Positions 1-9,450 of a stretch of DNA of 9,450 nucleotides are shown here, in pieces. Below the pieces are notes generated by a model that ran no database searches, was not told the origin of the DNA, and was given only the letters and a program-made list of their open reading frames with translations. Origin of the DNA: a virus (Duplodnaviria > Heunggongvirae > Uroviricota > Caudoviricetes); IMG/VR virus record IMGVR_UViG_2711768034_000006, positions 1 to 9,450 of that record; one strand, written 5' to 3'. Made by a program: the position numbers and the translations under genes. Numbering within the stretch: position 1 is the stretch's first letter; each line of letters begins with the position of its first letter.

Positions 1-3
1 ACG

Positions 4-228
4 TTACGGGCTGGCAAACGGCACGATTTCGGCTGATGCCACCTCCCTGGTGCGATAACTACACAGCAGGTTCCGCCCTAGCTTGACCAGTTCCTGCTGC
101 ACGCCTGGCAGCCGGTCGCGAGCATGGTCTACCGCTTCCTGTTCAGTGGCGAAACCCTCCATAATTTCGGTTTCGGTGTAGGTGCCGTGTTCCGGGTCAA
201 AAGCAATGATATATGCGCGATAACTCAT
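4..228 (-). CDS. Hypothetical small protein (74 aa), last gene of primase operon
   Basis: ATG at 228 preceded by GAGGG Shine-Dalgarno about 8 nt upstream; 10 nt after primase stop; followed (via wrap) by intrinsic terminator; no family recognised. Confidence 0.55.
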   Translation of the reverse strand: MSYRAYIIAFDPEHGTYTETEIMEGFATEQEAVDHARDRLPGVQQELVKLGRNLLCSYRTREVASAEIVPFASP

Positions 229-238
229 GGTTTAGCCC

Positions 239-2554
239 TCAGAACGGTTTATCTTCGCCGTCACCGGCTGTTTCTGTCATCACTTCCTGTGCGTCACACA
301 GGGGCGGCATACCTGCACGCGCCATCTGCGCTTCACGTGACTGCGATTTGCCGTCAGCGTTCAGCCATTTGGCCTTATTGCGCAGAATCCAGCAGCGGCT
401 TGCCTTGCCGTGAACCTTAATCGGCCCATCAATTTGCAGCGCGCCAGCTTCTTCCATTGCGCGGCGCATGGCAGGTGTGAAGCGGCTTTCTTCACCGTCT
501 GACAGCACATTTGCAATGTCACCTTGCGTGATAACGTCAACCGGCCATGACAGCACCAGGCGGTCAGCGTTCTTCTGCGTCATCGACTTCGCAGCGCCAA
601 TCACTGACTGTTTGGCCGCGTTCATCGGCGGGCGTTCGCCAGGGTTAAAGCTGCTTATGTCGCGCTCCGCCAGGAACACAGCCACAGCGTTGATAAACTC
701 GCGGTCGTTCAGCGCAGCATAGAGCGTGGCGTAAACTTCCTGCGGGCGCGGCTCTGCTTCGTGATGCACGATGCGCCAGCGGCGGTCTGTGTCGTCAATC
801 GGCAGCGCGTTAAGGTGGTTACTGAACACCAGCCAGCGCATGGCGTTGTGTTCACGGTGCTGGCGGCCATACTTCGGGTTCACGTCACGATATTCAGCCG
901 TAACGATGCTGCGCAGTTTGTTGGTGTGACTGTAGCGGTTTTCGCTCACCCCGGCCTGAATCTCGTCAACGATGGCCAGAACGCGCCCAGCTAACTGGCC
1001 GTTGAACTGGCTATCAAGCAGGTTAGGCAGGTCCACGTTCGGTGCCACATAGCCACGCCATACGCGCGCCAGGACGCTGGCCAGCCAGTTGCGGCCTGTG
1101 CCGGTTTTGTTGGCCACGTGCAGCCAGCCATAGTGCGGAAGTTCGCCTGGCTTCTGCTCCAGGTGTGCCAGCCAATCCAGGAATTTTTCGCGCTCTATGG
1201 CATCCGGGAATAGGTAGGCTACATGGTCCAGAAACAGGCTGATGCCTGTCGTGGCTTCTTTGCGTTCGAGCGGTCGCCAGGTGTTGATTGCAGGGCGTCC
1301 ATCCGGGTCACGGCAGAAGATGCCCGCGCCAGGGTGGAATGTCCGAGTGATAACCGTTTTGCGCTGCGGGTCTTGTTGCCACAGAACGGCGGTAGGCACC
1401 GGCTTTTTGCGCTCGTCGCTCAGTGTCATTGACGCTGACGTAAGCTGGCGGAATTCCTTCCAGGTCATAAACATTGTTGTGTCATTGACGCTGGCCACCA
1501 TTTCACCGCTTGCGATCCACACCATAGATTCCAGCATTTCTTCGCGGGACATCGACGGCGGCAGGATGCTGACTGTTTCCGGCTGTTGCAGGCGGGCGTT
1601 TTCTTCCTGCTGCAAACGGCGGCGGGTTTCTTCCGCCACGTCAACCACGCCACCAGCGCGCGCATTGTTAAGCGCAGCCAGGACCGCATCAGCACCTTGC
1701 TCCTGGTGCAAATCATTAACATCTTTGCCTTCTGCCAGGTCGGACGGCAGGGTGGCAACCGCAAAGCCAGTGCGGAAAGCGTCAGATTCTTTGCCACGGT
1801 CAGGGACTATGACCGGAACAGCACCAGCGGCCTTGATGATGTCGGCAGCCTTGCGGATGTTGCCAGCACCAAAGGAAACCACGGCAGCGCAGCCGGTGAC
1901 GGCGTTCACGCTCCAGGCGTGGCCGATACCTTCCACGATGTAGGCTTTCTGGCCTTTCTCCAGCTTTCCAGCCGTAAATGTGCCATCCATAGGGCAGCCA
2001 CTGGCGTTGCGCTTCTCTCCTTTGTTTGGCCCTACGAACTGTAAGGAAACCAGGTTTCCGCTTGATGACCAAACAGGGATTGCCAGCCAGCCTTTCAGGC
2101 TTTTGCTTCCGCTCCTGATGTCCTGCGTAACAACGCGCAGGCCGTCAGGCTTGCCCCACTTGCGCATGATGTACGGGTGTTCAGCGGTCGCAGGTTCTGA
2201 CGCAGCCCAAATGTCAATCGGGTTGTGTTTGGCTTTTGGCTTCTCAATAGGTGCCTTTTCCGCCCTGGCTGTTGGGTCATTCCACTGCGCCACGTTACGC
2301 GCCAGCCAGAACAGCGTGTTTTCAGTCACCGAACCGTCAATCTTAAAGCTACCCCAGGCGGAACGCACATCCGCTTCATTGCGGTAGTTGGTTGCGCCCT
2401 GGCTCCAGTTATGGAAGTCATCGAATGACAGGCCAGCAGCCTTTGCAGCGCAGCCAATGCGTGCCCAATCACGGCGTGAACAGTCGTTCGGCAGGGATTC
2501 CAGGGCGCTAAGTGCGCGCTCCATGTTGGTGATTTGGTCGTATGCCAGACTCAT
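239..2554 (-). CDS. Primase / SF3 helicase, phage P4 alpha-like replication initiator (771 aa)
   Basis: Long ORF; N-terminal Trp-rich region; DnaG/Toprim-like EGxxxA motif (IVEGIGHAW, aa 206-214); helicase-like region with Walker B-like LAIVDEIQ (aa 524-531) and SF3 motif C-like LVFSNH (aa 575-580); ATGA start/stop overlap with upstream orf77; GGGGG Shine-Dalgarno. Confidence 0.85.
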   Translation of the reverse strand: MSLAYDQITNMERALSALESLPNDCSRRDWARIGCAAKAAGLSFDDFHNWSQGATNYRNEADVRSAWGSFKIDGSVTENTLFWLARNVAQWNDPTARAEKAPIEKPKAKHNPIDIWAASEPATAEHPYIMRKWGKPDGLRVVTQDIRSGSKSLKGWLAIPVWSSSGNLVSLQFVGPNKGEKRNASGCPMDGTFTAGKLEKGQKAYIVEGIGHAWSVNAVTGCAAVVSFGAGNIRKAADIIKAAGAVPVIVPDRGKESDAFRTGFAVATLPSDLAEGKDVNDLHQEQGADAVLAALNNARAGGVVDVAEETRRRLQQEENARLQQPETVSILPPSMSREEMLESMVWIASGEMVASVNDTTMFMTWKEFRQLTSASMTLSDERKKPVPTAVLWQQDPQRKTVITRTFHPGAGIFCRDPDGRPAINTWRPLERKEATTGISLFLDHVAYLFPDAIEREKFLDWLAHLEQKPGELPHYGWLHVANKTGTGRNWLASVLARVWRGYVAPNVDLPNLLDSQFNGQLAGRVLAIVDEIQAGVSENRYSHTNKLRSIVTAEYRDVNPKYGRQHREHNAMRWLVFSNHLNALPIDDTDRRWRIVHHEAEPRPQEVYATLYAALNDREFINAVAVFLAERDISSFNPGERPPMNAAKQSVIGAAKSMTQKNADRLVLSWPVDVITQGDIANVLSDGEESRFTPAMRRAMEEAGALQIDGPIKVHGKASRCWILRNKAKWLNADGKSQSREAQMARAGMPPLCDAQEVMTETAGDGEDKPF

Positions 2555-2784
2555 GCCGCACCCCCTGCCTTGCGCTGCATATCCAGCGCCATTTGCCAGG
2601 CGTCCACGCGGTTGAACGGGAAGCGGGTGTTCTCTGCCAGGTGCCCCAGGTAGATGGAATATTGCAGCGGGCGGCCAGACTGGATGGCCTGCTTAATCAG
2701 TTCCTGCATGATGGCCACGCACTGTGCGTGCGTCTGGCTGGTAGCAGGTTCGCGCATAAGGCGATGCAGGGTGATGATGCTCAT
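2551..2784 (-). CDS. Hypothetical small protein (77 aa), tandem paralog of orf91
   Basis: ATGA overlaps at both ends (2781-2784 and 2551-2554); GGGGGTGCG motif just upstream of ATG; shares DAW motif and AGGA C-terminus with orf91. Confidence 0.55.
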   Translation of the reverse strand: MSIITLHRLMREPATSQTHAQCVAIMQELIKQAIQSGRPLQYSIYLGHLAENTRFPFNRVDAWQMALDMQRKAGGAA

Positions 2785-3056
2785 TTCGCACCCCCGGCAA
2801 TCTGCGCCAGGACGGTGGCCACTTCGCGTTCCGCCAGTTGTTCAGCGTAGGCGTGCGCAGTGATGCGCCAGGCGTCATCTTTGTTCAGGCGGTAGGCTTT
2901 GTTCCCGCGCATTACAATGCGGTAGGTTGCTTCCGCTGTGTCGGTGATGCTTGAACCGTTGCGCAGCATAGCGTCAGCGAATTTGAACGCAGCATCACAG
3001 CGAGTTTCAACGGTTCTGGTTTTCAGGATGGCGTCAGCCAGGTCGTGCAATTTCAT
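2781..3056 (-). CDS. Hypothetical small protein (91 aa), first gene of primase operon
   Basis: ATG at 3056 with GAGGAA Shine-Dalgarno about 8 nt upstream; translationally coupled to orf77; no family recognised. Confidence 0.55.
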   Translation of the reverse strand: MKLHDLADAILKTRTVETRCDAAFKFADAMLRNGSSITDTAEATYRIVMRGNKAYRLNKDDAWRITAHAYAEQLAEREVATVLAQIAGGAK

Positions 3057-3064
3057 TTCGCATT

Positions 3065-3083
3065 CCTCAATATTTCGTTGAGG
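3065..3083. promoter_or_regulatory. Perfect inverted repeat CCTCAA-N7-TTGAGG overlapping the orf91 ribosome-binding site
   Basis: Read directly; on the mRNA the GAGG Shine-Dalgarno lies inside the potential stem. Confidence 0.35.
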
Positions 3084-3122
3084 CTGCGCTAAAATCGGTG
3101 GCTCAATGAAGGGGGGTTTAAC

Positions 3123-3151
3123 TTGCTAAAGGTAAAGGTCTTTGCTAGTAT
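3123..3151 (+). promoter_or_regulatory. Candidate sigma70-like promoter on plus strand (TTGCTA-17-TAGTAT), antisense to operon leader
   Basis: Hexamers with 17-nt spacer read from sequence; 4/6 match each to consensus; lies about 40 nt upstream of a plus-strand terminator-like hairpin. Confidence 0.25.
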
Positions 3152-3188
3152 TTTTCCTAGTCAGGCCGCTAACCTAGACTTTCATTAA

Positions 3189-3229
3189 GCCCCCTGGATT
3201 GTTCGCGCAGTCCGGGGGTTTTCCTTTTT
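3189..3229 (+). terminator. Plus-strand intrinsic terminator-like hairpin (CCCCC..GGGGG stem) followed by TTTTCCTTTTT
   Basis: Five consecutive G-C pairs (3190-3194 with 3214-3218) then T-rich tract 3219-3229; no plus-strand CDS upstream, so it would end a short antisense RNA. Confidence 0.35.
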
Positions 3230-3252
3230 GTGGCGGTGTGCAAGCGCCACAA
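3228..3252. promoter_or_regulatory. Perfect 8-bp inverted repeat TTGTGGCG-N9-CGCCACAA at predicted transcription start of primase operon (operator candidate)
   Basis: Read directly; lies immediately downstream of the candidate -10 element; related ATTGTGGC motif recurs at 8163-8170 upstream of operon 2. Confidence 0.35.
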
Positions 3253-3257
3253 TTCGA

Positions 3258-3285
3258 ATGATACCCTGCAATCCGGTTTCTGCAA
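3258..3285 (-). promoter_or_regulatory. Candidate sigma70 promoter for orf91-orf77-primase-orf74 operon (TTGCAG-16-TATCAT on minus strand)
   Basis: -35 at 3285..3280, -10 at 3263..3258; about 200-nt leader to orf91 start. Confidence 0.35.
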
Positions 3286-3354
3286 GCTATTTTGCCAAAA
3301 TATAGGCCGAAAATTCATAAATAATTTCAGGCATTTAAAAAGGTAAATGTCGCT

Positions 3355-3384
3355 CATAATCCCACATAATCCGGCATAATCGGT
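3355..3384. repeat. Three direct repeats of CATAATC at exact 10-bp spacing (3355, 3365, 3375)
   Basis: CATAATCCCA / CATAATCCGG / CATAATCGGT read directly; helical phasing suggests a protein-binding array; near-identical array at 8220-8249. Confidence 0.5.
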
Positions 3385-3402
3385 TAATAAATGCTAACCA
3401 TA

Positions 3403-3431
3403 AAAAAAAGCCAGAGTTTTCACCCAGGCTT
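3403..3431 (-). terminator. Candidate intrinsic terminator downstream of tape-measure gene
   Basis: Minus-strand RNA forms an imperfect GC stem (3430..3411) followed by eight U (plus-strand A8 at 3403-3410), about 27 nt after TMP stop. Confidence 0.4.
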
Positions 3432-3457
3432 TGGTTGCAGTCATCAATTTCATTTCA

Positions 3458-5734
3458 TTACGGTGCTGCTAATCCGTCATTCATCATGCTACGATTTCGG
3501 ATTCCTTGCTGCTGTTTCAGCTTCTGCGCCACCTTATTTGCCAGCGCATCTTCATTCATGCCAGGCTCGGCCTTCACGTTGATGGTGTACTGGTCGTTCG
3601 TGTTCACCGTTGTGTTGCCGGTGCGGTTAGCCAGTGCCGGTGAAGGCAAGGACGCACCAGGGGCGGCGGTCGCTGCTGGCTGGCTGCTTTCGTCTTCACC
3701 GAACGGATTGCTAAAGAAATCTTTGGTTTTCTGCCACGCACCACCAGCAACATCAGACACGGCGTTTTTAAACTCCAGTGCCTTGTTGGTCAGGTTGCCG
3801 ATGTTGTCAGACACCCACAGAATCTTATCAATCAGGAACGTGATCGGTGCGGTCACAAGCTCGATGCCAGCCGCCAGGGTCTTACCGAACGTCATCCCCA
3901 TTTTACCGGCCTTATCCAGTTCCTCGCCGCTGTATTTGACCGGTTCGGTCAGTGACGTGAACCAGTTGAAAACCGTCTTAACCGCAGCACCCACACCATC
4001 AATGACAGGTTTCAGCGGCCCCATGCGTTCATAAAGGCGGCTCAGAGCTTCGCTAAGCGGTTCCAGCCCGGATTTGATGCCTTCACCCACTCCGCCAAAG
4101 AAAGCCTTCACACCGGCCCAATGGCGGTAAATCTGATAACCTGCCAGCGCCAGGCCAGCTACGGCAGCACCCACGCCAGTGGATATGAACGCCGCACCAA
4201 CGGCACGAATGCCGGTAGCCACCGCAGGCAGGCCACGGGTGCTGGCCAGAACGGCAGATGCGTTCATGCGGGCAAACAGGCTGGACATCTGCAACACGCC
4301 ACCTTTCAGGAACGTGAACGCAAAGCCAGCGGCGAACGTCGCCACACGTAGTGCCACCAGTGCACTGGAACCAATAACCACTGCTTTGGTCACGGTAGGG
4401 TATTCGCGCGCCAGTTCGGCAACCTTGCCGATAACCGGGCCAACGGTAGCCAGAACGCCGTTGAATGCTGGCAGCAGCACTGTGCCGATCGTGACGCCCA
4501 GGTTAGACACACGGTTGTTGAAAATCTTAAGCTGTGCCGACGTTTTGGCGGTGGCTGCCTCATATTCAGCCTGCATAGAACCGGCATATTTGGTCTTGTC
4601 TTTGACCATGTCCAGATTCTTTTGGTACGTATCAAGCTGTGTCAGCATTGGTGCGATAGCGCCAATCGATTCCTTACCAAACAGTTGCGAAAGCGTTGCC
4701 GCCTGCATGTGTTTTGGCAGCTTGCTGATCTTGGACAGGATGACGCGGATTGTTTCATCGGCGTTCAGTTGCATTGATTTTGCAACCTGCTTGGATGTGA
4801 AGCCAAGCTGTTTAAACGCTTCACGCTGTGACTTCGTGGCGGATGCGCCAGCGGTCAGGGATAGCAGCAGGTTTTTAATACCGGTGGCCGCAATCTCATT
4901 CTGCACGCCCATACCGCGCAGCGTTGCACCCATCGCAGCGATAGAACCGGAAGCTGCACCAGCGACGCTGCCAAGCGGCCCGATGCGCTGCGTGATTTCC
5001 AGGATGTCTTTGGCTGATGCGGCGGTGTTGTTGCCCAGGTAGTTGATCTTGTCAGCCAGAACGTTCATCTGGTCCTGCGTCATCCCGAAGGCGGCGCGCA
5101 TCTCTGCCATTGCCTGGCCTGCCTGGTCGGCGCTGACGTCAAAAGCCACACCCATTTTGATGGCCGATTCAGCAAACTTGGTTAGTTCGCTGGTGGCGAT
5201 GCCTGATTGAGCACCAGCGGCAACAATCTTGCCGATTTCGTTGGCTGCCATCGGCATTTTGGTTGACATATCCTGGATAGCCTGGCCCATCTTAACCAGG
5301 CCGTCAGGGGTTTCGAAGTTGGCAACCTTGCGGATATCTGCCAGCGTATCTTCAAAATCCATAGCCTGTTTGATCGGTACAGCTACCGTTGCGCCAAGTG
5401 CGACAGTCCCCAGGATTCCTTCTTTGTAGCCTTGACGCTTCGCCAGGTTGCGTTCGCGGGCATCCTCCACGCGTTTCAGGCGTTCGGTGGCAGAACGAAG
5501 GCGTTCAACCTGCCCGACAACCGTTTGATAGCGGTCCTTCATGCGGGAGAATATCGCGCTATCCTGGCCATAACGCTTCATTGCTTCATTTAACTGGCGC
5601 TGTTCGCGCGACAGCTTAGAGATTGCGCTACCAATCTCGACGGTATTTTTCTTTACAGTTCCAAATGCACCACGAAGGCTGCCGGAAACGGCCCCACCAA
5701 TCGTGATTTTTGCATTTAACTTCTTGTTGGCCAT
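3458..5734 (-). CDS. Phage tail tape-measure protein-like (758 aa)
   Basis: Coiled-coil, A/G/Q-rich N-terminal half typical of tape-measure core regions; long central hydrophobic Gly/Ala-rich segment (about aa 440-540); size typical of siphovirus tape-measure proteins; ATG at 5734. Confidence 0.75.
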   Translation of the reverse strand: MANKKLNAKITIGGAVSGSLRGAFGTVKKNTVEIGSAISKLSREQRQLNEAMKRYGQDSAIFSRMKDRYQTVVGQVERLRSATERLKRVEDARERNLAKRQGYKEGILGTVALGATVAVPIKQAMDFEDTLADIRKVANFETPDGLVKMGQAIQDMSTKMPMAANEIGKIVAAGAQSGIATSELTKFAESAIKMGVAFDVSADQAGQAMAEMRAAFGMTQDQMNVLADKINYLGNNTAASAKDILEITQRIGPLGSVAGAASGSIAAMGATLRGMGVQNEIAATGIKNLLLSLTAGASATKSQREAFKQLGFTSKQVAKSMQLNADETIRVILSKISKLPKHMQAATLSQLFGKESIGAIAPMLTQLDTYQKNLDMVKDKTKYAGSMQAEYEAATAKTSAQLKIFNNRVSNLGVTIGTVLLPAFNGVLATVGPVIGKVAELAREYPTVTKAVVIGSSALVALRVATFAAGFAFTFLKGGVLQMSSLFARMNASAVLASTRGLPAVATGIRAVGAAFISTGVGAAVAGLALAGYQIYRHWAGVKAFFGGVGEGIKSGLEPLSEALSRLYERMGPLKPVIDGVGAAVKTVFNWFTSLTEPVKYSGEELDKAGKMGMTFGKTLAAGIELVTAPITFLIDKILWVSDNIGNLTNKALEFKNAVSDVAGGAWQKTKDFFSNPFGEDESSQPAATAAPGASLPSPALANRTGNTTVNTNDQYTINVKAEPGMNEDALANKVAQKLKQQQGIRNRSMMNDGLAAP

Positions 5735-5755
5735 AATAATTGTGCTCTCAAGGAA

Positions 5756-5962
5756 TTAATTAAGTAAATTTTCTGCAAGGGTGTGTTCACCGATTGCCCG
5801 CAAGGCGGCAGCGGCCAGTTGCAGGGCGCATTCGGTGCGGTAGTCTCGCTGTTTCTGCATTCCCTCCGCTGTTTCGCAAACCATAACTTTGGGCAGGACC
5901 ATATCCACCAGTTCAGGCCAGGGGTTTGTTCCTTCCGGTTTTGTGTGAATACGGTCCAGCAT
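5756..5962 (-). CDS. Hypothetical small protein (68 aa)
   Basis: ATG with AAGGGGG Shine-Dalgarno 6-7 nt upstream; immediately upstream of tape-measure gene; no family recognised. Confidence 0.45.
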   Translation of the reverse strand: MLDRIHTKPEGTNPWPELVDMVLPKVMVCETAEGMQKQRDYRTECALQLAAAALRAIGEHTLAENLLN

Positions 5963-5971
5963 GGTGCCCCC

Positions 5972-6181
5972 TTATGCGGTTTTGCTTTCTGTTGGTTTGT
6001 CGTTGGCGGTGATGTCGCGCATCCCAAACGTGATACCTTTCCAGGACTTCATCGCGCCGCTAAGGTTCTTGATCGCCAACTTTTGTGCGTCGGTCAGTTG
6101 GCTTGCGTTGTTCTTCGTCATCTTGTCGGCTACGCCGATGACGTTCAGAACGGCTTCATAAATGTTGTTGTTGGTTGCCAT
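5972..6181 (-). CDS. Hypothetical small protein (69 aa)
   Basis: ATG at 6181, GGAG about 10 nt upstream; 9-nt gap to orf68; no family recognised. Confidence 0.45.
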   Translation of the reverse strand: MATNNNIYEAVLNVIGVADKMTKNNASQLTDAQKLAIKNLSGAMKSWKGITFGMRDITANDKPTESKTA

Positions 6182-6183
6182 TC

Positions 6184-6501
6184 TTATGCGCTCCGCACCA
6201 GGATAGCGCCGCGCTTCACTGCCTGGCGCTTGGCCCGTTCACCGGAACTGATGCGGCTGGATGGTTGCCACTTCTTGCGTTCCAGGGTCGATGCGTGGCT
6301 TTCCGCTTCGTTGCGCATGGCGCGACCGGCTTCATCGGTCATGTGTTCGAATGCGTTTAAACGGTTGCGAAGGCTGGCCAGCAGGTCGGCTGCTTCGTAG
6401 CTGATTGGGTTTTTCTCTGAAATGGTTTGGAAACGCTTTGTTTCGCTAAGGATCAAACGCGCTTCTTCTTTCATTGATTCGTACAGGTCATGGTTTTTCA
6501 T
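6184..6501 (-). CDS. Hypothetical protein (105 aa from internal ATG; ORF-track start at 6633 probably a spurious extension)
   Basis: N-terminal 44 codons of the long ORF are W/S/T/P/H-rich and not protein-like; MKNHDLYE start at 6501 gives a helical, basic-tailed protein; no clear Shine-Dalgarno at either start. Confidence 0.4.
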   Translation of the reverse strand: MKNHDLYESMKEEARLILSETKRFQTISEKNPISYEAADLLASLRNRLNAFEHMTDEAGRAMRNEAESHASTLERKKWQPSSRISSGERAKRQAVKRGAILVRSA

Positions 6502-6715
6502 AGTATTGGCCGCTAACAATAGTTGTTGATGATTAAGTGAGTGCGCGCTTTTAGGTGACAGGTGCGGCGCAACCGGTGTGGAATTAGTGGTGGTTTTGAC
6601 CGTCCAGGATGACCACCAACCTGGTTCCAGCATCCATCGTCTGAGGAACGATGAAGGTTAAATTTGGCCGGTTATTTTGGGCACAGGGAACCGGTGAAAC
6701 CTGTATTCTTGGCCA

Positions 6716-6880
6716 TTATTTGCCGTTCAGCCCGCTACTCAGAAACTTTTCAATCACCTGGCTGCGTGAAGGGCGGATGCCTGTTCTGCGTTCCAGTTTG
6801 GCTTGCTCTCTTTCGACCTGGCGCACCAGGTCAGGGGCGAGGCGTACCGTTACGTGCTGGCGTGTTTCTTGTCGTTTCAT
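6716..6880 (-). CDS. Ribbon-helix-helix (Arc/CopG-like) DNA-binding protein, 54 aa
   Basis: My own translation of the minus strand: MKRQETRQHVTVRLAPDLVRQVEREQAKLERRTGIRPSRSQVIEKFLSSGLNGK; beta-strand/helix/helix pattern resembling Arc; below the ORF-track size cutoff; ATG 3 nt after orf104 stop. Confidence 0.7.
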   Translation of the reverse strand: MKRQETRQHVTVRLAPDLVRQVEREQAKLERRTGIRPSRSQVIEKFLSSGLNGK

Positions 6881-6883
6881 GGC

Positions 6884-7198
6884 TTAATACCTGCTCATCC
6901 AGCTTTCGCGCTTCTGTTTCGGGCGCTGCTCGCGGTAGTGACTGCGCACCAGGGAGGCGAGGTAATTCACGGCGCGTTCAATCTGGTACTGCTTAAGCTC
7001 CGGGTAAGCCTTGCGAATCCATTTTTCAGCAGCGTCATCGCTGTAGATGAATCCTGACCAGCCAACCGGCTGCACTACGATGCGCGGTGTGTTTTCATCA
7101 CCGTGGCGCACATACATGGCCACACCTTCGATAGCTGCCAGGATTTCACCCGGCAGGGCAGCGCGCTCCGCTGCCGCTTTTTTGCTGCCCCACCACAT
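6884..7198 (-). CDS. Hypothetical protein (104 aa; ORF-track start at 7204 is TTG)
   Basis: ATG at 7198 sits 2 nt after the upstream TGA; AAGG Shine-Dalgarno about 7 nt upstream; no family recognised. Confidence 0.5.
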   Translation of the reverse strand: MWWGSKKAAAERAALPGEILAAIEGVAMYVRHGDENTPRIVVQPVGWSGFIYSDDAAEKWIRKAYPELKQYQIERAVNYLASLVRSHYREQRPKQKRESWMSRY

Positions 7199-7200
7199 GA

Positions 7201-8085
7201 TCAAGCCTTCCAGAACATAGTTGAGTCAGGCACCAGTGCGGATGCGTTCACCCACACAACGATTTCAACGGCACCATTCAGCACGCGGCGGGCGGTGACG
7301 CGGATTTCATCATCCAGGGCAACGGCTGCATTGCCGAAAGCGCCAATGATTGTGCTGGAAGTCTGGCCGCTGATTTCAGCGCGTACACCGTAGGCACGCA
7401 GAACGCCGTCTTGCAGTTCCAGGCCGGTGCAATCACCGCCAACAATGGCTTTAACTTCATCAAAGCGCAGGTTTTTGGCTGCAATCTTCTGCGCCACTGC
7501 GGTGAATGACGGGCTGGTAAGGGTTTCCGCTGCGCTTTCCAGGTGGTTCAGCAGCACGAAGTCAGCCAGATCGGCAATACCGCGTTCAATGGCGGTGTTG
7601 ACCGCTTCCAGCACTGTATCGTCAGCGAATTCGTGTTTCAGTTGCTGGCGGGTCAGGGTGTAGCCAACGCCGTAAGCCGGTGCGGTGTTGTGGTCGAATG
7701 CTGCAACCATGTACGGCTTGCCGCTCATGCTGATTTCTTCGCCGTCAGTAACTTTGGCGAACGCACCAGGGCGGATGACAACGAAGCGGTCAGCCACTTC
7801 GAGGCCAGTCGTTGCACCAGTCTGGCCAGTCGGCTGCGTGGTCATCGGGCCAGGAATGCGGATGATTTCAGCGCCTGCCTGTGCCACCAGCGAACGTTCA
7901 GCCAGAACAGCGTTGAAGGTGGTCTGCTTGCCACCTTTCGGGGTCAGCACGTCATTCATGGACAGGTAGCGAACTGCTGCCGGTTCCATAGGGATAAATT
8001 GAGTAATATCACCGTTGCCATCAGTGCGAACATGGCCGCCCTGGTGGTTCAACGCGTCGTTGATAAGTTGAGATAAAACGTTCAT
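7201..8085 (-). CDS. Beta-rich structural-like protein of unknown family (294 aa), first gene of operon 2
   Basis: ORF-track start at 8169 is TTG with a non-protein-like leader; ATG at 8085 has GGAG 8-9 nt upstream; A/G/T/V-rich composition like capsid or tail proteins; no motif recognised. Confidence 0.65.
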   Translation of the reverse strand: MNVLSQLINDALNHQGGHVRTDGNGDITQFIPMEPAAVRYLSMNDVLTPKGGKQTTFNAVLAERSLVAQAGAEIIRIPGPMTTQPTGQTGATTGLEVADRFVVIRPGAFAKVTDGEEISMSGKPYMVAAFDHNTAPAYGVGYTLTRQQLKHEFADDTVLEAVNTAIERGIADLADFVLLNHLESAAETLTSPSFTAVAQKIAAKNLRFDEVKAIVGGDCTGLELQDGVLRAYGVRAEISGQTSSTIIGAFGNAAVALDDEIRVTARRVLNGAVEIVVWVNASALVPDSTMFWKA

Positions 8086-8219
8086 TAAAAATGCTCCGGT
8101 TGTTGTGCAATAAATCGTCTGGAATGACTTAAAGATATACAGTAACCAGACCGAACACAATAGCCACAATGTGAGCTTTTTAATGTAAAATCAGTAACTT
8201 ATAACCCTGAATACTTGCA

Positions 8220-8249
8220 AATAACCAGGCATAATCCGGCGTAATCGAT
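8220..8249. repeat. Second copy of the phased 10-bp repeat array (AATAACCAGG / CATAATCCGG / CGTAATCGAT) upstream of operon 2
   Basis: Shares the 17-mer CATAATCCGGC[A/G]TAATCG with 3365-3381. Confidence 0.45.
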
Positions 8250-8379
8250 ATTTACACATCTTTACAATTCAGCATGTGTAAAACGTGTTCGCTTTATTTT
8301 GCAATCGCGCACGTATGGTGCCAGTGCTTTGATAAGGTTCACATAAATGATTGATTTACTTGACGTAATCATAAAGTGA

Positions 8380-8570
8380 GTTTTGGAGGGGCACGCACAA
8401 CGCGAATTACGCGGGACCAATGCCCCCGCCCTGTACTGCCGCCGAGGAGGACCCTTCGATTTTTGAGGCAGGCAGGCGGCCAGGCGGTGCGCGCAAGGTC
8501 CATTATGTTAAATCGCGGAGTTTGCAGGCAGAAAGAAGCACCAGGAAGGTGCTGGCAGGCGAACGGCGCA
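8380..8570. other. GC-rich non-coding island with nested short hairpins (candidate cos/pac site or structured RNA)
   Basis: Abrupt GC-rich stretch inside an AT-rich intergenic region; inverted repeats GGGGCA/TGCCCC (8388-8426), CGCG-aatta-CGCG (8401-8413), AGCACC-aggaa-GGTGCT (8537-8553); both overlapping ORFs translate to non-protein-like sequence. Confidence 0.3.
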
Positions 8571-9065
8571 TAATCTGACATATTCCGCGCGCTTTCAGCC
8601 CGTATTCACTCAGGCTTATTGTTGCGATATGTGCAACGTTCTGGCTGTTTACTGAACAGCTACTGTTTGAACGCAAAACAAGGCTGAAAGGCTCGTTTCC
8701 TGTAGTTACATCATACTTCTGTATGTTGTACCTATTCCGGCTGCTGCTTTGGTTAGACGTGAAAAAGCGTGGTTACGAATGAGCGGACCACCACCAGCAC
8801 CCATGCCGCCCAGGCACCCCATCCGGTTACAACGCTGAATTGAGTTGTAACCGTGTTATGTTTCTGAAAAATAACAAATTTCGTGCAATCGGTTACAACG
8901 GTTACGCCAAGTTCATAAAGTTTGGAAAAAGCACTATGGGTATATAGGAATATACGAATTTCTTTTTTTTACTAATCTGTTGTAACCATTGTAACCGGAA
9001 TGGGTAAAATCATTAATATTCAGTGGCTTGCGTGGTTACAACGCCGGTTACAACACCGATTTTGC

Positions 9066-9092
9066 GTTGTAACCGTTGTAACCGTTGTAACC
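9066..9092. repeat. Three perfect tandem copies of GTTGTAACC
   Basis: Read directly. Confidence 0.9.
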
Positions 9093-9103
9093 GTAGTAGG
9101 CAT

Positions 9104-9129
9104 AAAAAAGCCCCGGCAGATGCCAGGGC
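9104..9129 (-). terminator. Intrinsic terminator ending the primase operon
   Basis: Minus-strand RNA GCCCUGGC-AUCU-GCCGGGGC (8-bp stem with one G-U, 4-nt loop) followed by UUUUUU, 25 nt after orf74 stop. Confidence 0.55.
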
Positions 9130-9151
9130 GGTCAGAACAAAAATTGTTGTA

Positions 9152-9450
9152 ACGTTACGGGCTGGCAAACGGCACGATTTCGGCTGATGCCACCTCCCTG
9201 GTGCGATAACTACACAGCAGGTTCCGCCCTAGCTTGACCAGTTCCTGCTGCACGCCTGGCAGCCGGTCGCGAGCATGGTCTACCGCTTCCTGTTCAGTGG
9301 CGAAACCCTCCATAATTTCGGTTTCGGTGTAGGTGCCGTGTTCCGGGTCAAAAGCAATGATATATGCGCGATAACTCATGGTTTAGCCCTCAGAACGGTT
9401 TATCTTCGCCGTCACCGGCTGTTTCTGTCATCACTTCCTGTGCGTCACAC
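9152..9450. repeat. Wrap-around duplicate of window positions 1-299
   Basis: Identical sequence; the ORF track lists the same 74-aa protein at 4..228 and 9155..9379. Confidence 0.9.
9155..9379 (-). CDS. Second copy of the 74-aa hypothetical protein (same locus as 4..228 via wrap-around)
   Basis: Identical translation in ORF track. Confidence 0.55.
   Translation of the reverse strand: MSYRAYIIAFDPEHGTYTETEIMEGFATEQEAVDHARDRLPGVQQELVKLGRNLLCSYRTREVASAEIVPFASP

What the first reader, a model, noticed from the sequence alone, without database searches (positions are those of the whole stretch)
1..9450. Window is a 9,151-bp unit with a 299-bp wrap-around repeat
Positions 9152-9450 repeat 1-299 exactly, including the 74-aa ORF and the 3' end of the primase gene. 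This is what a circular replicon linearised with overlap looks like, or a head-to-tail concatemer such as a rolling-circle or packaging intermediate. It makes the element autonomous at about 9.15 kb rather than an arbitrary chromosomal slice.
Basis: seen in the sequence. Interest (0 to 1): 0.55.

Follow-up and report, generated by a model that had tools for sequence, protein, structure and literature searches.

The report
Circular plasmid that is a phage satellite
The window is a complete 9.15-kb circular E. coli plasmid whose repeated ends are only an assembly overlap; it has no integrase but carries the DNA-packaging (cos) site, a tail tape-measure gene and a capsid-protein gene tied to one group of small myoviruses, so it is most likely a plasmid-borne phage satellite, a kind of element hardly documented so far.

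Summary
Observation confirmed: 1-299 equals 9152-9450 exactly, giving a 9,151-bp unit. The window is an entire contig of an E. coli draft assembly. Fourteen of fifteen other complete-unit contigs of the family, from other assemblies, carry end overlaps that match usual assembler word sizes (30, 77, 95, 127). Their break points differ and they read through the window's junction with one copy of the 299 bp. Four closed circular plasmid records of 8.9-9.3 kb exist. The repeat is therefore a linearisation overlap, not an att site or a virion terminal repeat.

The element encodes a primase-helicase operon with a cognate 9-bp iteron origin. A second operon runs from an HK97-fold capsid protein to a 758-aa tape measure protein. 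It has no integrase. Its late operon is about 95% identical to that of PICIs integrated at fis.

It carries the cos site of Jilinvirus myophages (35/35 bp core at the phages' termini), and its tape measure is 57-60% identical to theirs. A Pseudomonas counterpart carries a Pseudomonas-phage-like cos.

Most likely it is a plasmid-form, cos-packaged satellite of Jilinvirus-type phages. Circularity is near certain; satellite function is inferred. Novelty: new variant of a known kind.

The parts
1..299 (.). First copy of the assembly overlap, identical to 9152-9450. It is single-copy in the real circle.
   Evidence: Exact identity. Relatives L001, L002 and L007 have one copy between the homologues of 8xxx-9151 and 300+.
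9152..9450 (.). Second copy of the assembly overlap (wrap-around).
   Evidence: In 14 of 15 other complete-unit contigs the overlap length matches usual assembler word sizes.
4..228 (-). 74-aa ORF at the end of the replication operon, function unknown. It lies between the primase gene and the origin in both the plasmid and the fis-island forms.
   Evidence: No family hit.
239..2554 (-). 771-aa primase-helicase (PriCT_2, weak Toprim_3, DUF5906/D5-like); the replication initiator.
   Evidence: Pfam and PHROGs DNA-primase hits. All listed cluster members lie on contigs of 8.95-9.45 kb.
2551..2784 (-). 77-aa ORF of the replication operon, function unknown.
   Evidence: No family hit.
2781..3056 (-). 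91-aa ORF, first gene of the replication operon, function unknown.
   Evidence: No family hit.
3355..3381 (-). Operator-like array GATTATGCCG GATTATGTGG GATTATG (10-bp phase), upstream of the replication operon.
   Evidence: The same array type lies upstream of the late operon.
3156..3228 (+). Candidate ~70-nt antisense RNA against the leader of the replication operon. Promoter-like TTGCTA-17-TAGTAT at 3123-3151; strong terminator hairpin at 3191-3218 followed by a T-run.
   Evidence: Terminator scan, sequence, fold -28.1 kcal/mol with z -3.4. Function is inferred only.
3458..5734 (-). 758-aa tail tape measure protein, last gene of the late operon.
   Evidence: PF10145 3.5e-39, phrog_28 1.5e-129, TIGR01760. 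It is 57-60% identical over its full length to Jilinvirus TMPs.
5756..5962 (-). 68-aa ORF directly upstream of the TMP gene, conserved across the family, function unknown.
5972..6181 (-). 69-aa accessory ORF, present in some family members only.
   Evidence: Missing from pW47-1. Present in L004 and L007.
6184..6633 (-). 149-aa ORF, annotated as 105 aa from an internal start at 6501 in most relatives. Function unknown.
   Evidence: Weak DUF7341 hit only.
6716..6880 (-). 54-aa ORF. It may be a ribbon-helix-helix regulator, judged only from its sequence pattern, and is a candidate binder of the GATTATG arrays.
   Evidence: Sequence. Only a weak YlcI/YnfO hit. Inference.
6884..7198 (-). 104-aa ORF immediately after the capsid gene, conserved, function unknown.
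7201..8085 (-). 294-aa HK97-fold capsid protein, first gene of the late operon.
8220..8246 (-). Operator-like array GATTACGCCG GATTATGCCT GGTTATT, upstream of the late operon.
   Evidence: Conserved in the fis island L003; absent from phage HeidiAbel.
8392..8470 (-). cos site of Jilinvirus type. The core GCGGGGGCATTGGTCCCGC (8429-8411) is an inverted repeat. The predicted 13-nt cohesive end GGGGCATTGGTCC is at 8426-8414. The cosB-like GTAATTCGCGTTGTGCGTG is at 8410-8392. A diverged left arm runs up to about 8470.
   Evidence: BLAST hits only to Jilinvirus phages, in the non-coding stretch 43-75 bp upstream of terS. Alignment. Phage record termini fall here. Present in 13 family members beside the window.
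8825..9154 (.). Replication origin: 11 copies of the 9-bp iteron GGTTACAAC in both orientations, flanking an AT-rich stretch at about 8905-8985.
   Evidence: 11 hits, all in this interval, against 1.8 expected for the whole window.. The iteron sequence changes with the replicase type in relatives.
9110..9129 (-). Terminator-like hairpin with T-run after the 74-aa ORF, at the end of the replication operon.
   Evidence: sequence.

Best explanation
The window is one complete copy of a 9,151-bp circular plasmid of E. coli. The assembler wrote it out with 299 bp of overlap, so the repeat has no biological meaning of its own.

The plasmid replicates by itself. It encodes a primase-helicase operon, and a cognate array of 9-bp iterons lies just downstream of that operon. 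It has no integrase.

Its second operon (capsid protein, four to five small proteins, tape measure protein) is the 'late zone' of PICIs that integrate at the end of fis. Upstream of that operon lies the cos site of Jilinvirus-type myophages.

Inferred mechanism: when such a phage multiplies in the cell, its terminase recognises and cuts the plasmid's cos. It then packages plasmid DNA either as 9-kb monomers, into small heads built with or redirected by the plasmid's own HK97-fold protein, or as multimers into phage-sized heads. These heads are joined to helper tails that may contain the plasmid's tape measure protein.

The sequence and comparisons show circularity, the replication module, the HK97 fold, the tape measure homology and the cos identity. 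Packaging, capsid size, use of the tape measure protein and regulation through the GATTATG arrays are inferred.
For: Circularity:
- Exact overlap, and the window is a whole contig.
- 14 of 15 other complete-unit contigs have overlaps of 30, 77, 95 or 127 bp, matching usual assembler word sizes, with different break points.
- Relatives carry a single copy of the 299 bp, and closed circular plasmid records exist.

Replicon:
- Primase-helicase domains.
- 11 iterons confined to 8825-9154.
- Four replicase types each have their own 9-bp iteron.
- The listed primase-cluster members all lie on ~9-kb contigs.

Satellite nature:
- The late operon is 94-96% identical to that of fis-yhdJ islands with integrase, AlpA and VapE primase. 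This is a published PICI class (PMC10111431).
- A 35-bp core is identical to a non-coding site just upstream of terS in Jilinvirus phages. Among phages, blastn found only members of this group: six named isolates (nine records) over 35-38 bp at 95-97% identity, and HeidiAbel and Alux-21 over 53-73 bp at 81-89%.
- The linear records of ECOO78 and PPpW-3 carry the same 13 nt at both ends, starting at this site, and Arya starts 5 nt upstream.
- The TMP is 57-60% identical to the TMPs of the same phages.
- A capsid-protein homologue (53% identical) sits in a PICI embedded in the head gene of a Jilinvirus-like prophage. There it is fused to a helper-like prohead protease domain.
- A Pseudomonas fluorescens 9.9-kb circular contig has the same architecture. 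Its cos resembles that of Pseudomonas phage PPpW-3 in the cosB-like part.
- Size is tightly held: plasmids 8.94-9.31 kb, and islands 9.35-9.54 kb apart from one of 10.5 kb that carries an IS1.
Against: - No experiment or virion sequence was available. The only IMG/VR hits to the cos core are two phage genomes and one island.
- The capsid protein has no detectable sequence similarity to the candidate helper's head protein. Co-assembly is therefore not obvious.
- In the E. coli PICI EcCICFT073, deleting the capsid gene did not restore phage plaquing, and PMC10111431 states that PICI capsid genes are not needed for transfer.
- The window has no terminase small subunit.
- I could not test whether the source strain carries or meets a Jilinvirus.
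- The 299-bp overlap is not a usual de Bruijn word size, so the assembler's behaviour is assumed rather than known.
Confidence: 0.72

Rival explanations
1. A cryptic small plasmid that merely picked up decaying fragments of a PICI or phage. The capsid, tape measure and cos sequences would be relics with no role in transfer.
For: - PLSDB types all five related plasmids as non-mobilizable.
- Most ORFs have no family.
- There is no virion-derived evidence.
Against: - All ORFs are intact in dozens of independent isolates of several genera, with 250-member 90% clusters.
- The length is held within about 4%.
- The cos core is 35/35 identical to the phage site while the flanks have diverged.
- cos changes together with the host-specific phage in Pseudomonas.
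- Replicase modules are swapped around an unchanged late operon.
All of these point to selection on the late operon and on cos.
Confidence: 0.12
2. An anti-phage defence plasmid. The capsid and tape-measure homologues would act as decoys that poison assembly of Jilinvirus-type phages, and transfer of the plasmid would be secondary or absent.
For: - PICIs commonly interfere with helpers, and assembly-interference defences are known.
- The TMP has two very divergent alleles in its N-terminal two thirds, which looks like an arms race.
Against: - There is no PADLOC hit.
- A conserved helper cos and a fixed unit length are not needed for defence alone.
Interference and satellite transfer are not mutually exclusive.
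Confidence: 0.1
3. The 299-bp repeat is a true terminal redundancy of a linear packaged genome, or the two att-like direct repeats of an integrated element.
For: The repeat is exact, and it is longer than typical word-size overlaps.
Against: - Other assemblies of the same element break at other places and read through this junction with one copy.
- Closed circular relatives have one copy.
- The contig has no flanks and no fis att block.
- The repeat cuts through two coding genes.
- The phage-type terminus lies elsewhere, at 8414-8426.
Confidence: 0.02
4. The excised circular form of a chromosomal PICI, caught in a draft assembly, rather than a stably maintained plasmid.
For: The late operon is nearly identical to that of fis PICIs, which excise and replicate.
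Against: - The window has no integrase, no AlpA and no attP block.
- Its replication module is different, and every listed member of the primase cluster lies on a ~9-kb contig.
- Complete genomes list such elements as separate plasmids.
Confidence: 0.04

Closest known systems
fis-integrating Gram-negative PICIs (Fillol-Salom et al. 2018, PMC6092414; 'fis PICIs' of PMC10111431)
   Same: - The late operon (capsid protein, 104-, 54-, 105- and 68-aa proteins, tape measure) is nearly identical: 94-96% nucleotide identity.
- The same cos core and the same operator array upstream of the late operon.
- The primase is followed by an iteron origin.
- Genes run in one direction, and the size is about 9-9.5 kb.
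   Different: - No integrase, no AlpA and no att site.
- A different primase-helicase with two different small upstream genes.
- A second copy of the operator array in front of the replication operon.
- Maintained as a free circle.
cos-type SaPIs such as SaPIbov5, with the capsid homologue Ccm (PMC8569155)
   Different: - Gram-positive, integrated, repressor-controlled.
- Ccm is a recognisable sequence homologue of the helper capsid protein, whereas the protein here is not.
- SaPIs have no tape measure gene.
Satellite phage P4 (helper P2)
   Same: - A primase-helicase acting on iterons.
- It can live as a plasmid.
- It carries the helper's cos.
- It is a small fraction of the size of a myovirus helper.
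   Different: - P4 has an integrase, Sid/Psu/Delta and an immunity RNA; no such families were found here.
- P4 has no capsid protein and no tape measure gene of its own.
Capsid-forming PICIs (cf-PICI, e.g. EcCI2, PDB 9gyi)
   Different: - cf-PICIs encode a full head and packaging module (portal, protease, adaptors, terminase) and are integrated. Here only the shell protein is present.
- cf-PICIs take tails from helpers and have no tape measure gene.
Helper-embedded PICIs (PMC10111431)
   Same: A homologue of the capsid protein lies in a PICI inserted in the head gene of a Jilinvirus-like prophage. This links the protein family to the same helper group.
   Different: That element is integrated inside its helper, has an integrase and an AAA_25 replicase, and its capsid gene is fused to a protease domain.

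Membership tests
Autonomous circular plasmid | Sequence closes on itself. Independent assemblies are circular permutations with one copy of the junction. | tested here: met
Autonomous circular plasmid | Own replication initiator with a cognate origin. | tested here: met
   Primase-helicase. Iterons confined to 8825-9154. The iteron sequence co-varies with replicase type. Activity itself was not tested.
Autonomous circular plasmid | Physically separate from the chromosome (copy number, junction-spanning reads). | not testable with these tools
   No reads are available. Indirect support: closed plasmid records in complete genomes, and all listed primase-cluster members lie on ~9-kb contigs.
PICI (phage-inducible chromosomal island) | Integrase and a specific chromosomal attachment site. 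| tested here: not met
   No integrase ORF or domain. No fis att block. The element is a free circle.
PICI (phage-inducible chromosomal island) | AlpA-type (Gram-negative) or Stl-type master regulator. | tested here: not met
   No Phage_AlpA or HTH_17 hit in any ORF of the window. The fis relatives do have AlpA.
PICI (phage-inducible chromosomal island) | Primase/replicase with the origin immediately downstream. | tested here: met
PICI (phage-inducible chromosomal island) | Helper packaging signal (cos or pac) or own TerS. Lacks most virion and lysis genes. | tested here: met
   Jilinvirus cos. Only a capsid protein and a TMP are present.
PICI (phage-inducible chromosomal island) | Induction, replication and high-frequency transfer by a helper phage. 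| not testable with these tools
   Needs experiments.
P4-like satellites | Core genes sid, psu, delta, epsilon, integrase and alpha. | tested here: not met
   No matches to those families in Pfam, PHROGs or NCBIfam. Only a primase-helicase is shared in kind.
cf-PICI | Complete capsid and packaging module (portal, protease, capsid protein, adaptors, terminase). | tested here: not met
   Only the HK97-fold protein is present.
Phage-plasmid | A full phage genome able to form virions, plus plasmid maintenance. | tested here: not met
   9.15 kb, 11 ORFs, with no terminase, portal, tail, baseplate or lysis genes.
HK97-fold major capsid proteins | HK97 fold. | tested here: met
Tail tape measure proteins | PhageMin_Tail/TP901 tape-measure domain, and length and position typical of a TMP. 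| tested here: met
   PF10145 3.5e-39, TIGR01760 5e-71, phrog_28 1.5e-129. Full-length alignment to myophage TMPs.

The most novel reading that the evidence does not exclude
This would be a family of tailed-phage satellites that have given up integration and live as autonomous ~9-kb plasmids. The family is found in E. coli, Salmonella, Proteus, Cronobacter and Pseudomonas. Each plasmid tracks the cos site of its local Iiscvirinae-type myophage.

On this reading the plasmids build hybrid particles. The shell would be a small one made from the plasmid's own HK97-fold protein and sized for 9 kb. By rough geometric scaling from a 41-kb T=7 head, that is about what a T=3 shell would hold. The tail would be a helper tail carrying the plasmid's own tape measure protein, which could change how the DNA enters cells or evade exclusion by resident helpers.

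This would give many 'non-mobilizable' small plasmids a transfer route. It would also be the first satellite known to replace a tail-internal protein.
Probability: 0.3. Interest if true: 0.8.

Novelty: new variant of a known kind. Interest (0 to 1): 0.6.

Why it matters
The wrap-around repeat itself is routine. What matters is the element it delimits.

[quoted passage not shown] It also says many small plasmids have no known transfer route (PMC12282955).

This family supplies a concrete, testable case:
- PLSDB types the plasmids as non-mobilizable.
- They carry the packaging site of a defined, cultivable phage group. HeidiAbel/Bas97 of that group is in the BASEL collection.
- They share a late operon with chromosomal PICIs, which shows a switch between integrated and plasmid lifestyles by swapping the integration and replication module.

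The family also points to unreported satellites of the poorly known Jilinvirus phages. It raises the question of why a satellite keeps a tape measure gene.

Tried and rejected
- Rfam (E up to 1) and tRNA scans of the window found nothing.
- A search for the fis attP identity block gave only a chance-level 3-mismatch hit inside a gene.
- A search for an XerCD cer/dif-like site found none.
- A PADLOC scan for defence proteins found none.
- tblastn of the capsid protein against 50,697 phage records gave no match. A profile comparison with the HeidiAbel head protein gave only a non-significant C-terminal similarity, probability 6%. The capsid protein is therefore not a close copy of the helper's.
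- The intergenic region 3057-3457 has no match in phages.
- The operator motif is not present in HeidiAbel. It is therefore not a shared late-promoter element of that phage.
- Scans of GTDB species-representative genomes for the cos core and for the capsid protein found nothing.
- Literature searches for plasmid satellites with tape measure genes, for these plasmids and for Jilinvirus satellites found no description.
- A 23-kb contig whose proteins are named Caudoviricetes turned out to be a chromosomal fis island, not a packaged concatemer.

Full report
**1. The observation.**
Positions 1-299 and 9152-9450 are identical base for base, and 299 is the longest prefix that equals a suffix. The overlap contains a 74-aa ORF (4-228, minus strand) and the last 20 codons of a 771-aa gene (239-2554, minus strand). 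That gene carries PriCT_2, a weak Toprim_3 match and DUF5906 domains, and it matches phage DNA-primase families.

An exact-protein look-up shows that the window is the reverse complement of a whole contig. The contig is CXWS01000064.1 (9,450 bp) of the E. coli draft assembly GCA_001268745.1. There is nothing beyond its ends.

**2. Why the repeat is an assembly overlap of a circle.**
- Contig L007 comes from another E. coli assembly and encodes the identical primase. It is 9,247 bp with a 77-bp prefix=suffix overlap, and its break point falls at window ~7023-7099. It runs without interruption through the window's 9151/1 junction with a single copy of the 299-bp segment.
- Thirteen further complete-unit contigs of the family all have end overlaps of 127 bp (contigs named k127_), 77 bp or 30 bp (Logan contigs). 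They come from isolates and metagenomes.
- Four samples gave contigs of identical length (9,092 bp) broken at four different places.
- A Pseudomonas contig has a 95-bp overlap. A Cronobacter contig of the same architecture has none.
- The closed records pW47-1 (Proteus mirabilis, 8,955 bp) and pECQ4552_IHU03 (E. coli) also have one copy of the segment, lying between the homologues of 8xxx-9151 and 300+.
- Further closed circular records are pM121-3 (8,933 bp), pR17.0904_9.3k (Salmonella, 9,316 bp) and CP054330 (9,138 bp).
- All 15 listed members of the primase's 90% cluster lie on contigs of 8.95-9.45 kb.

A length of 299 is not a usual de Bruijn word size, so I assume rather than know how that assembler produced it.

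**3. Anatomy.**
All credible genes are on the minus strand, in two operons separated by two low-GC intergenic regions.

*Replication operon.* It comprises a 91-aa ORF, a 77-aa ORF, the 771-aa primase-helicase and a 74-aa ORF, followed by a terminator-like hairpin at 9129-9110. The origin comes next. It holds 11 copies of GGTTACAAC in both orientations, all within 8825-9154 (1.8 expected for the whole window), around an AT-rich core.

Family members with other replicases have other 9-bp iterons at the same place:
- TGACACCTA with a Toprim/VapE protein;
- CATACGGAA with a 730-aa DUF5906 protein;
- CTGTTCCCC with a PriCT_2/VapE protein.

A member with the window's replicase type has the window's iteron. 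This co-variation is good evidence for a cognate initiator-origin pair.

*Late operon.* It comprises:
- a 294-aa protein (7201-8085);
- ORFs of 104, 54, 149 (105 in most relatives), 69 (accessory) and 68 aa;
- a 758-aa tape measure protein (PF10145 3.5e-39; phrog_28 1.5e-129; TIGR01760).

Longer homologues are repeatedly fused to an S78 prohead protease domain. The family has 275 clusters at 50% identity with E ≤ 0.001.

*Shared operator-like array.* A 10-bp-phased array, GATTAYGCCG GATTATG…, precedes both operons (3355-3381 and 8220-8246). It is conserved in relatives but absent from the candidate helper phage.

**4. Relatives and lifestyle.**
In 65 of 5,426 complete E. coli genomes the late operon lies in a chromosomal island between fis and yhdJ. 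It is 94-96% identical over the stretches aligned to two of these islands. The island reads: integrase, AlpA, a small ORF, VapE primase, the 74-aa ORF, then the late operon ending at fis.

These are the 'fis PICIs' catalogued by the thousand in PMC10111431, whose att identity block is TACGGCATGAACTAA. I found that block flanking the islands at spacings of 9,347-9,538 bp, and 10,527 bp in one island that carries an IS1. I did not find it in the window.

The window's plasmid equals such an island with the integration module removed and the replication module exchanged. PLSDB types the plasmids as non-mobilizable.

**5. The link to a helper phage.** Four independent lines point to Jilinvirus-type myoviruses, which have genomes of 41-42 kb.

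(a) *Tape measure.* The TMP is 57-60% identical over its whole length to those of ECOO78, ECO1230-10, ep3, HeidiAbel_Bas97, Alux-21 and Salmonella PT1.

(b) *cos site.*
- A blastn search of the 1-kb intergenic region against 50,697 phage records hit only this same phage group, plus one weak unrelated 30-bp match. The hit is a short non-coding segment, window 8392-8429. It matches six named isolates (nine records) over 35-38 bp at 95-97% identity, and HeidiAbel and Alux-21 over 53-73 bp at 81-89%.
- In the four phage records inspected the segment lies 43-75 bp upstream of the small terminase gene.
- The alignment shows an invariant core, GCGGGGGCATTGGTCCCGC (an inverted repeat), followed by GTAATTCGCGTTGTGCGTG.
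- The linear ECOO78 record carries GGGGCATTGGTCC at both ends. The Arya record starts 5 nt upstream of it.
- The PPpW-3 record carries GGGGCATAGACTC at both ends.
- This is what a 13-nt cohesive-end site looks like, so I call it cos. That assignment is an inference from the record termini.
- Beside the window, the core is present in 13 members of the family: 12 plasmid-type sequences and the fis island L003.

(c) *Capsid-protein family.* A 53%-identical homologue of the capsid protein lies in a PICI inserted in the head gene of a Salmonella prophage. That prophage's TerL, portal and head protein are 66-76% identical to HeidiAbel's. The homologue's N-terminal protease domain is 50% identical to the helper's head protein.

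(d) *A Pseudomonas counterpart.* A 9,919-bp circular contig from Pseudomonas fluorescens has the same architecture: primase, capsid protein, small ORFs, TMP and no integrase. Its cos-like site, GCGGGGGCATGGGTCCCGCGTAAACCCATATCTGCGTG, resembles the PPpW-3 site in the part that differs from the enterobacterial one.

Variants of the plasmids and islands that carry a 159-aa Nu1-like winged-helix 'terminase small subunit' have the same left half of cos but a different right half. This suggests that those variants redirect packaging with their own small subunit.

**6. How it most likely works.**

*Shown by the sequence and comparisons:*
- a self-replicating circle;
- a late operon shared with PICIs;
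- a helper-type cos;
- an HK97-fold protein;
- a helper-type TMP.

*Inferred:*
- On infection by, or induction of, a Jilinvirus-type phage, the helper terminase cuts the plasmid at cos and packages it in the direction of the late operon.
- The narrow length range (8.94-9.31 kb for the enterobacterial plasmids; 9.35-9.54 kb for the islands, apart from one IS1-bearing island of 10.5 kb) suggests a head-size constraint.
- By rough geometric scaling, a T=3 shell would hold about a fifth of what a 41-kb T=7 head holds. That is close to 9 kb, but this is my own estimate, not a result.
- Alternatively, four units (36.6 kb) would fill a helper head, as reported for EcCICFT073 in lambda heads (PMC6092414).
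- The role of the TMP is open. It might be incorporated into tails, alter DNA entry, or interfere with the helper.
- The TMP's N-terminal two thirds occurs as two alleles only 23-52% identical, on a 98-100% identical C-terminal third. This points to exchange and selection.
- The GATTATG arrays probably bind an element-encoded regulator. The 54-aa protein (possibly ribbon-helix-helix, from its sequence pattern alone) and the 104-aa protein are candidates.

**7. Comparison with known systems and novelty.**
- *PICI:* the element fails two defining features, integrase/att and AlpA. It is therefore not a PICI in the strict sense, although it shares a module and probably a mechanism with fis PICIs.
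- *P4-like:* it lacks sid, psu, delta and an integrase.
- *cf-PICI:* it lacks a full head module.
- *Phage-plasmid:* it lacks a full phage genome.
- *cos-type SaPIs:* it works most like SaPIbov5 (helper cos plus a capsid homologue). It is also like P4 in plasmid mode.

I found no paper describing these plasmids, TMP-bearing satellites, or satellites of Jilinvirus. [quoted passage not shown] I therefore rate it a new variant of a known kind.

**8. Verdict.**
The finding as written is correct but ordinary: a circular contig with an overlap. The element it delimits is more interesting: a probable plasmid-borne cos satellite of Jilinvirus-type phages that carries its own capsid and tape-measure genes.

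| Claim | Confidence |
|---|---|
| Circular plasmid | about 0.95 |
| Satellite function | about 0.7 |
| Small capsids and incorporation of the TMP | about 0.3 |

Noticed in passing
window 3123-3228 (+): A promoter-like TTGCTA-17-TAGTAT is followed by a two-hairpin ~70-nt transcript that ends in a strong terminator. The transcript is antisense to the leader of the replication operon, and it folds at -28.1 kcal/mol (z -3.4). It looks like a countertranscript for copy-number control.
   Followed up: partly
window 3355-3381 and 8220-8246 (-): The same 10-bp-phased GATTAYGCCG array precedes both operons. In the chromosomal fis island it precedes only the late operon. It is absent from phage HeidiAbel. 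The binding protein is unknown.
   Followed up: partly
L002 (CP077066.1, pECQ4552_IHU03, 17,382 bp): This record is a head-to-tail dimer of the element whose copies are 99.96-100% identical. One copy lacks 509 bp covering the capsid gene start, the operator and cos, so the dimer has a single cos. It may be a real heterodimer or a long-read assembly artefact.
   Followed up: partly
window 3458-5734 (TMP), compared with L001, L003 and L008: Residues about 60-480 of the tape measure protein exist as two alleles only 23-52% identical between plasmids. The window's allele equals that of a fis island and is the one closer to Jilinvirus. Residues 480-758 are 98-100% identical among the plasmids.
   Followed up: partly
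L004, L019-L021, L039-L041, L043: Some plasmids and islands carry an extra 159-aa Nu1-like winged-helix protein, annotated as terminase small subunit or AbiEi, plus a 73-aa ORF. These variants have a different right half of cos (GCGGGGCCATATGACCCGCAG...). This suggests packaging redirected by their own small subunit.
   Followed up: partly
L037/L038 (Salmonella, GCA_018535225.1): A PICI (integrase, AAA_25 replicase) is embedded in the fused protease-capsid gene of a Jilinvirus-like prophage. Its own capsid gene is a hybrid: a helper-like S78 protease domain joined to the satellite-type HK97 domain.
   Followed up: partly
L044 (Pseudomonas fluorescens, JBIBIF010000081.1): A 9,919-bp circular contig has the same plasmid-satellite architecture. 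It also carries an 89-aa HTH gene about 72-75% identical in nucleotide sequence to the Xis/MerR-like regulator of Iiscvirinae-type phages. The family is therefore not confined to Enterobacterales.
   Followed up: partly
window 7201-8085 (-): The capsid protein belongs to an HK97-fold family with no Pfam or PHROGs model. The family has 275 clusters at 50% identity, many of them fused to prohead protease.
   Followed up: partly
window 8472-8800: About 330 bp between the iterons and cos are conserved among plasmids with different replicases but are absent from the fis island. No function was found; there is no Xer site and no Rfam hit.
   Followed up: partly
window 6184-6633 (-): The start of this ORF is ambiguous. 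It is called as 149 aa here and in some chromosomes, but as 105 aa, from an internal ATG at 6501, in most relatives.
   Followed up: no
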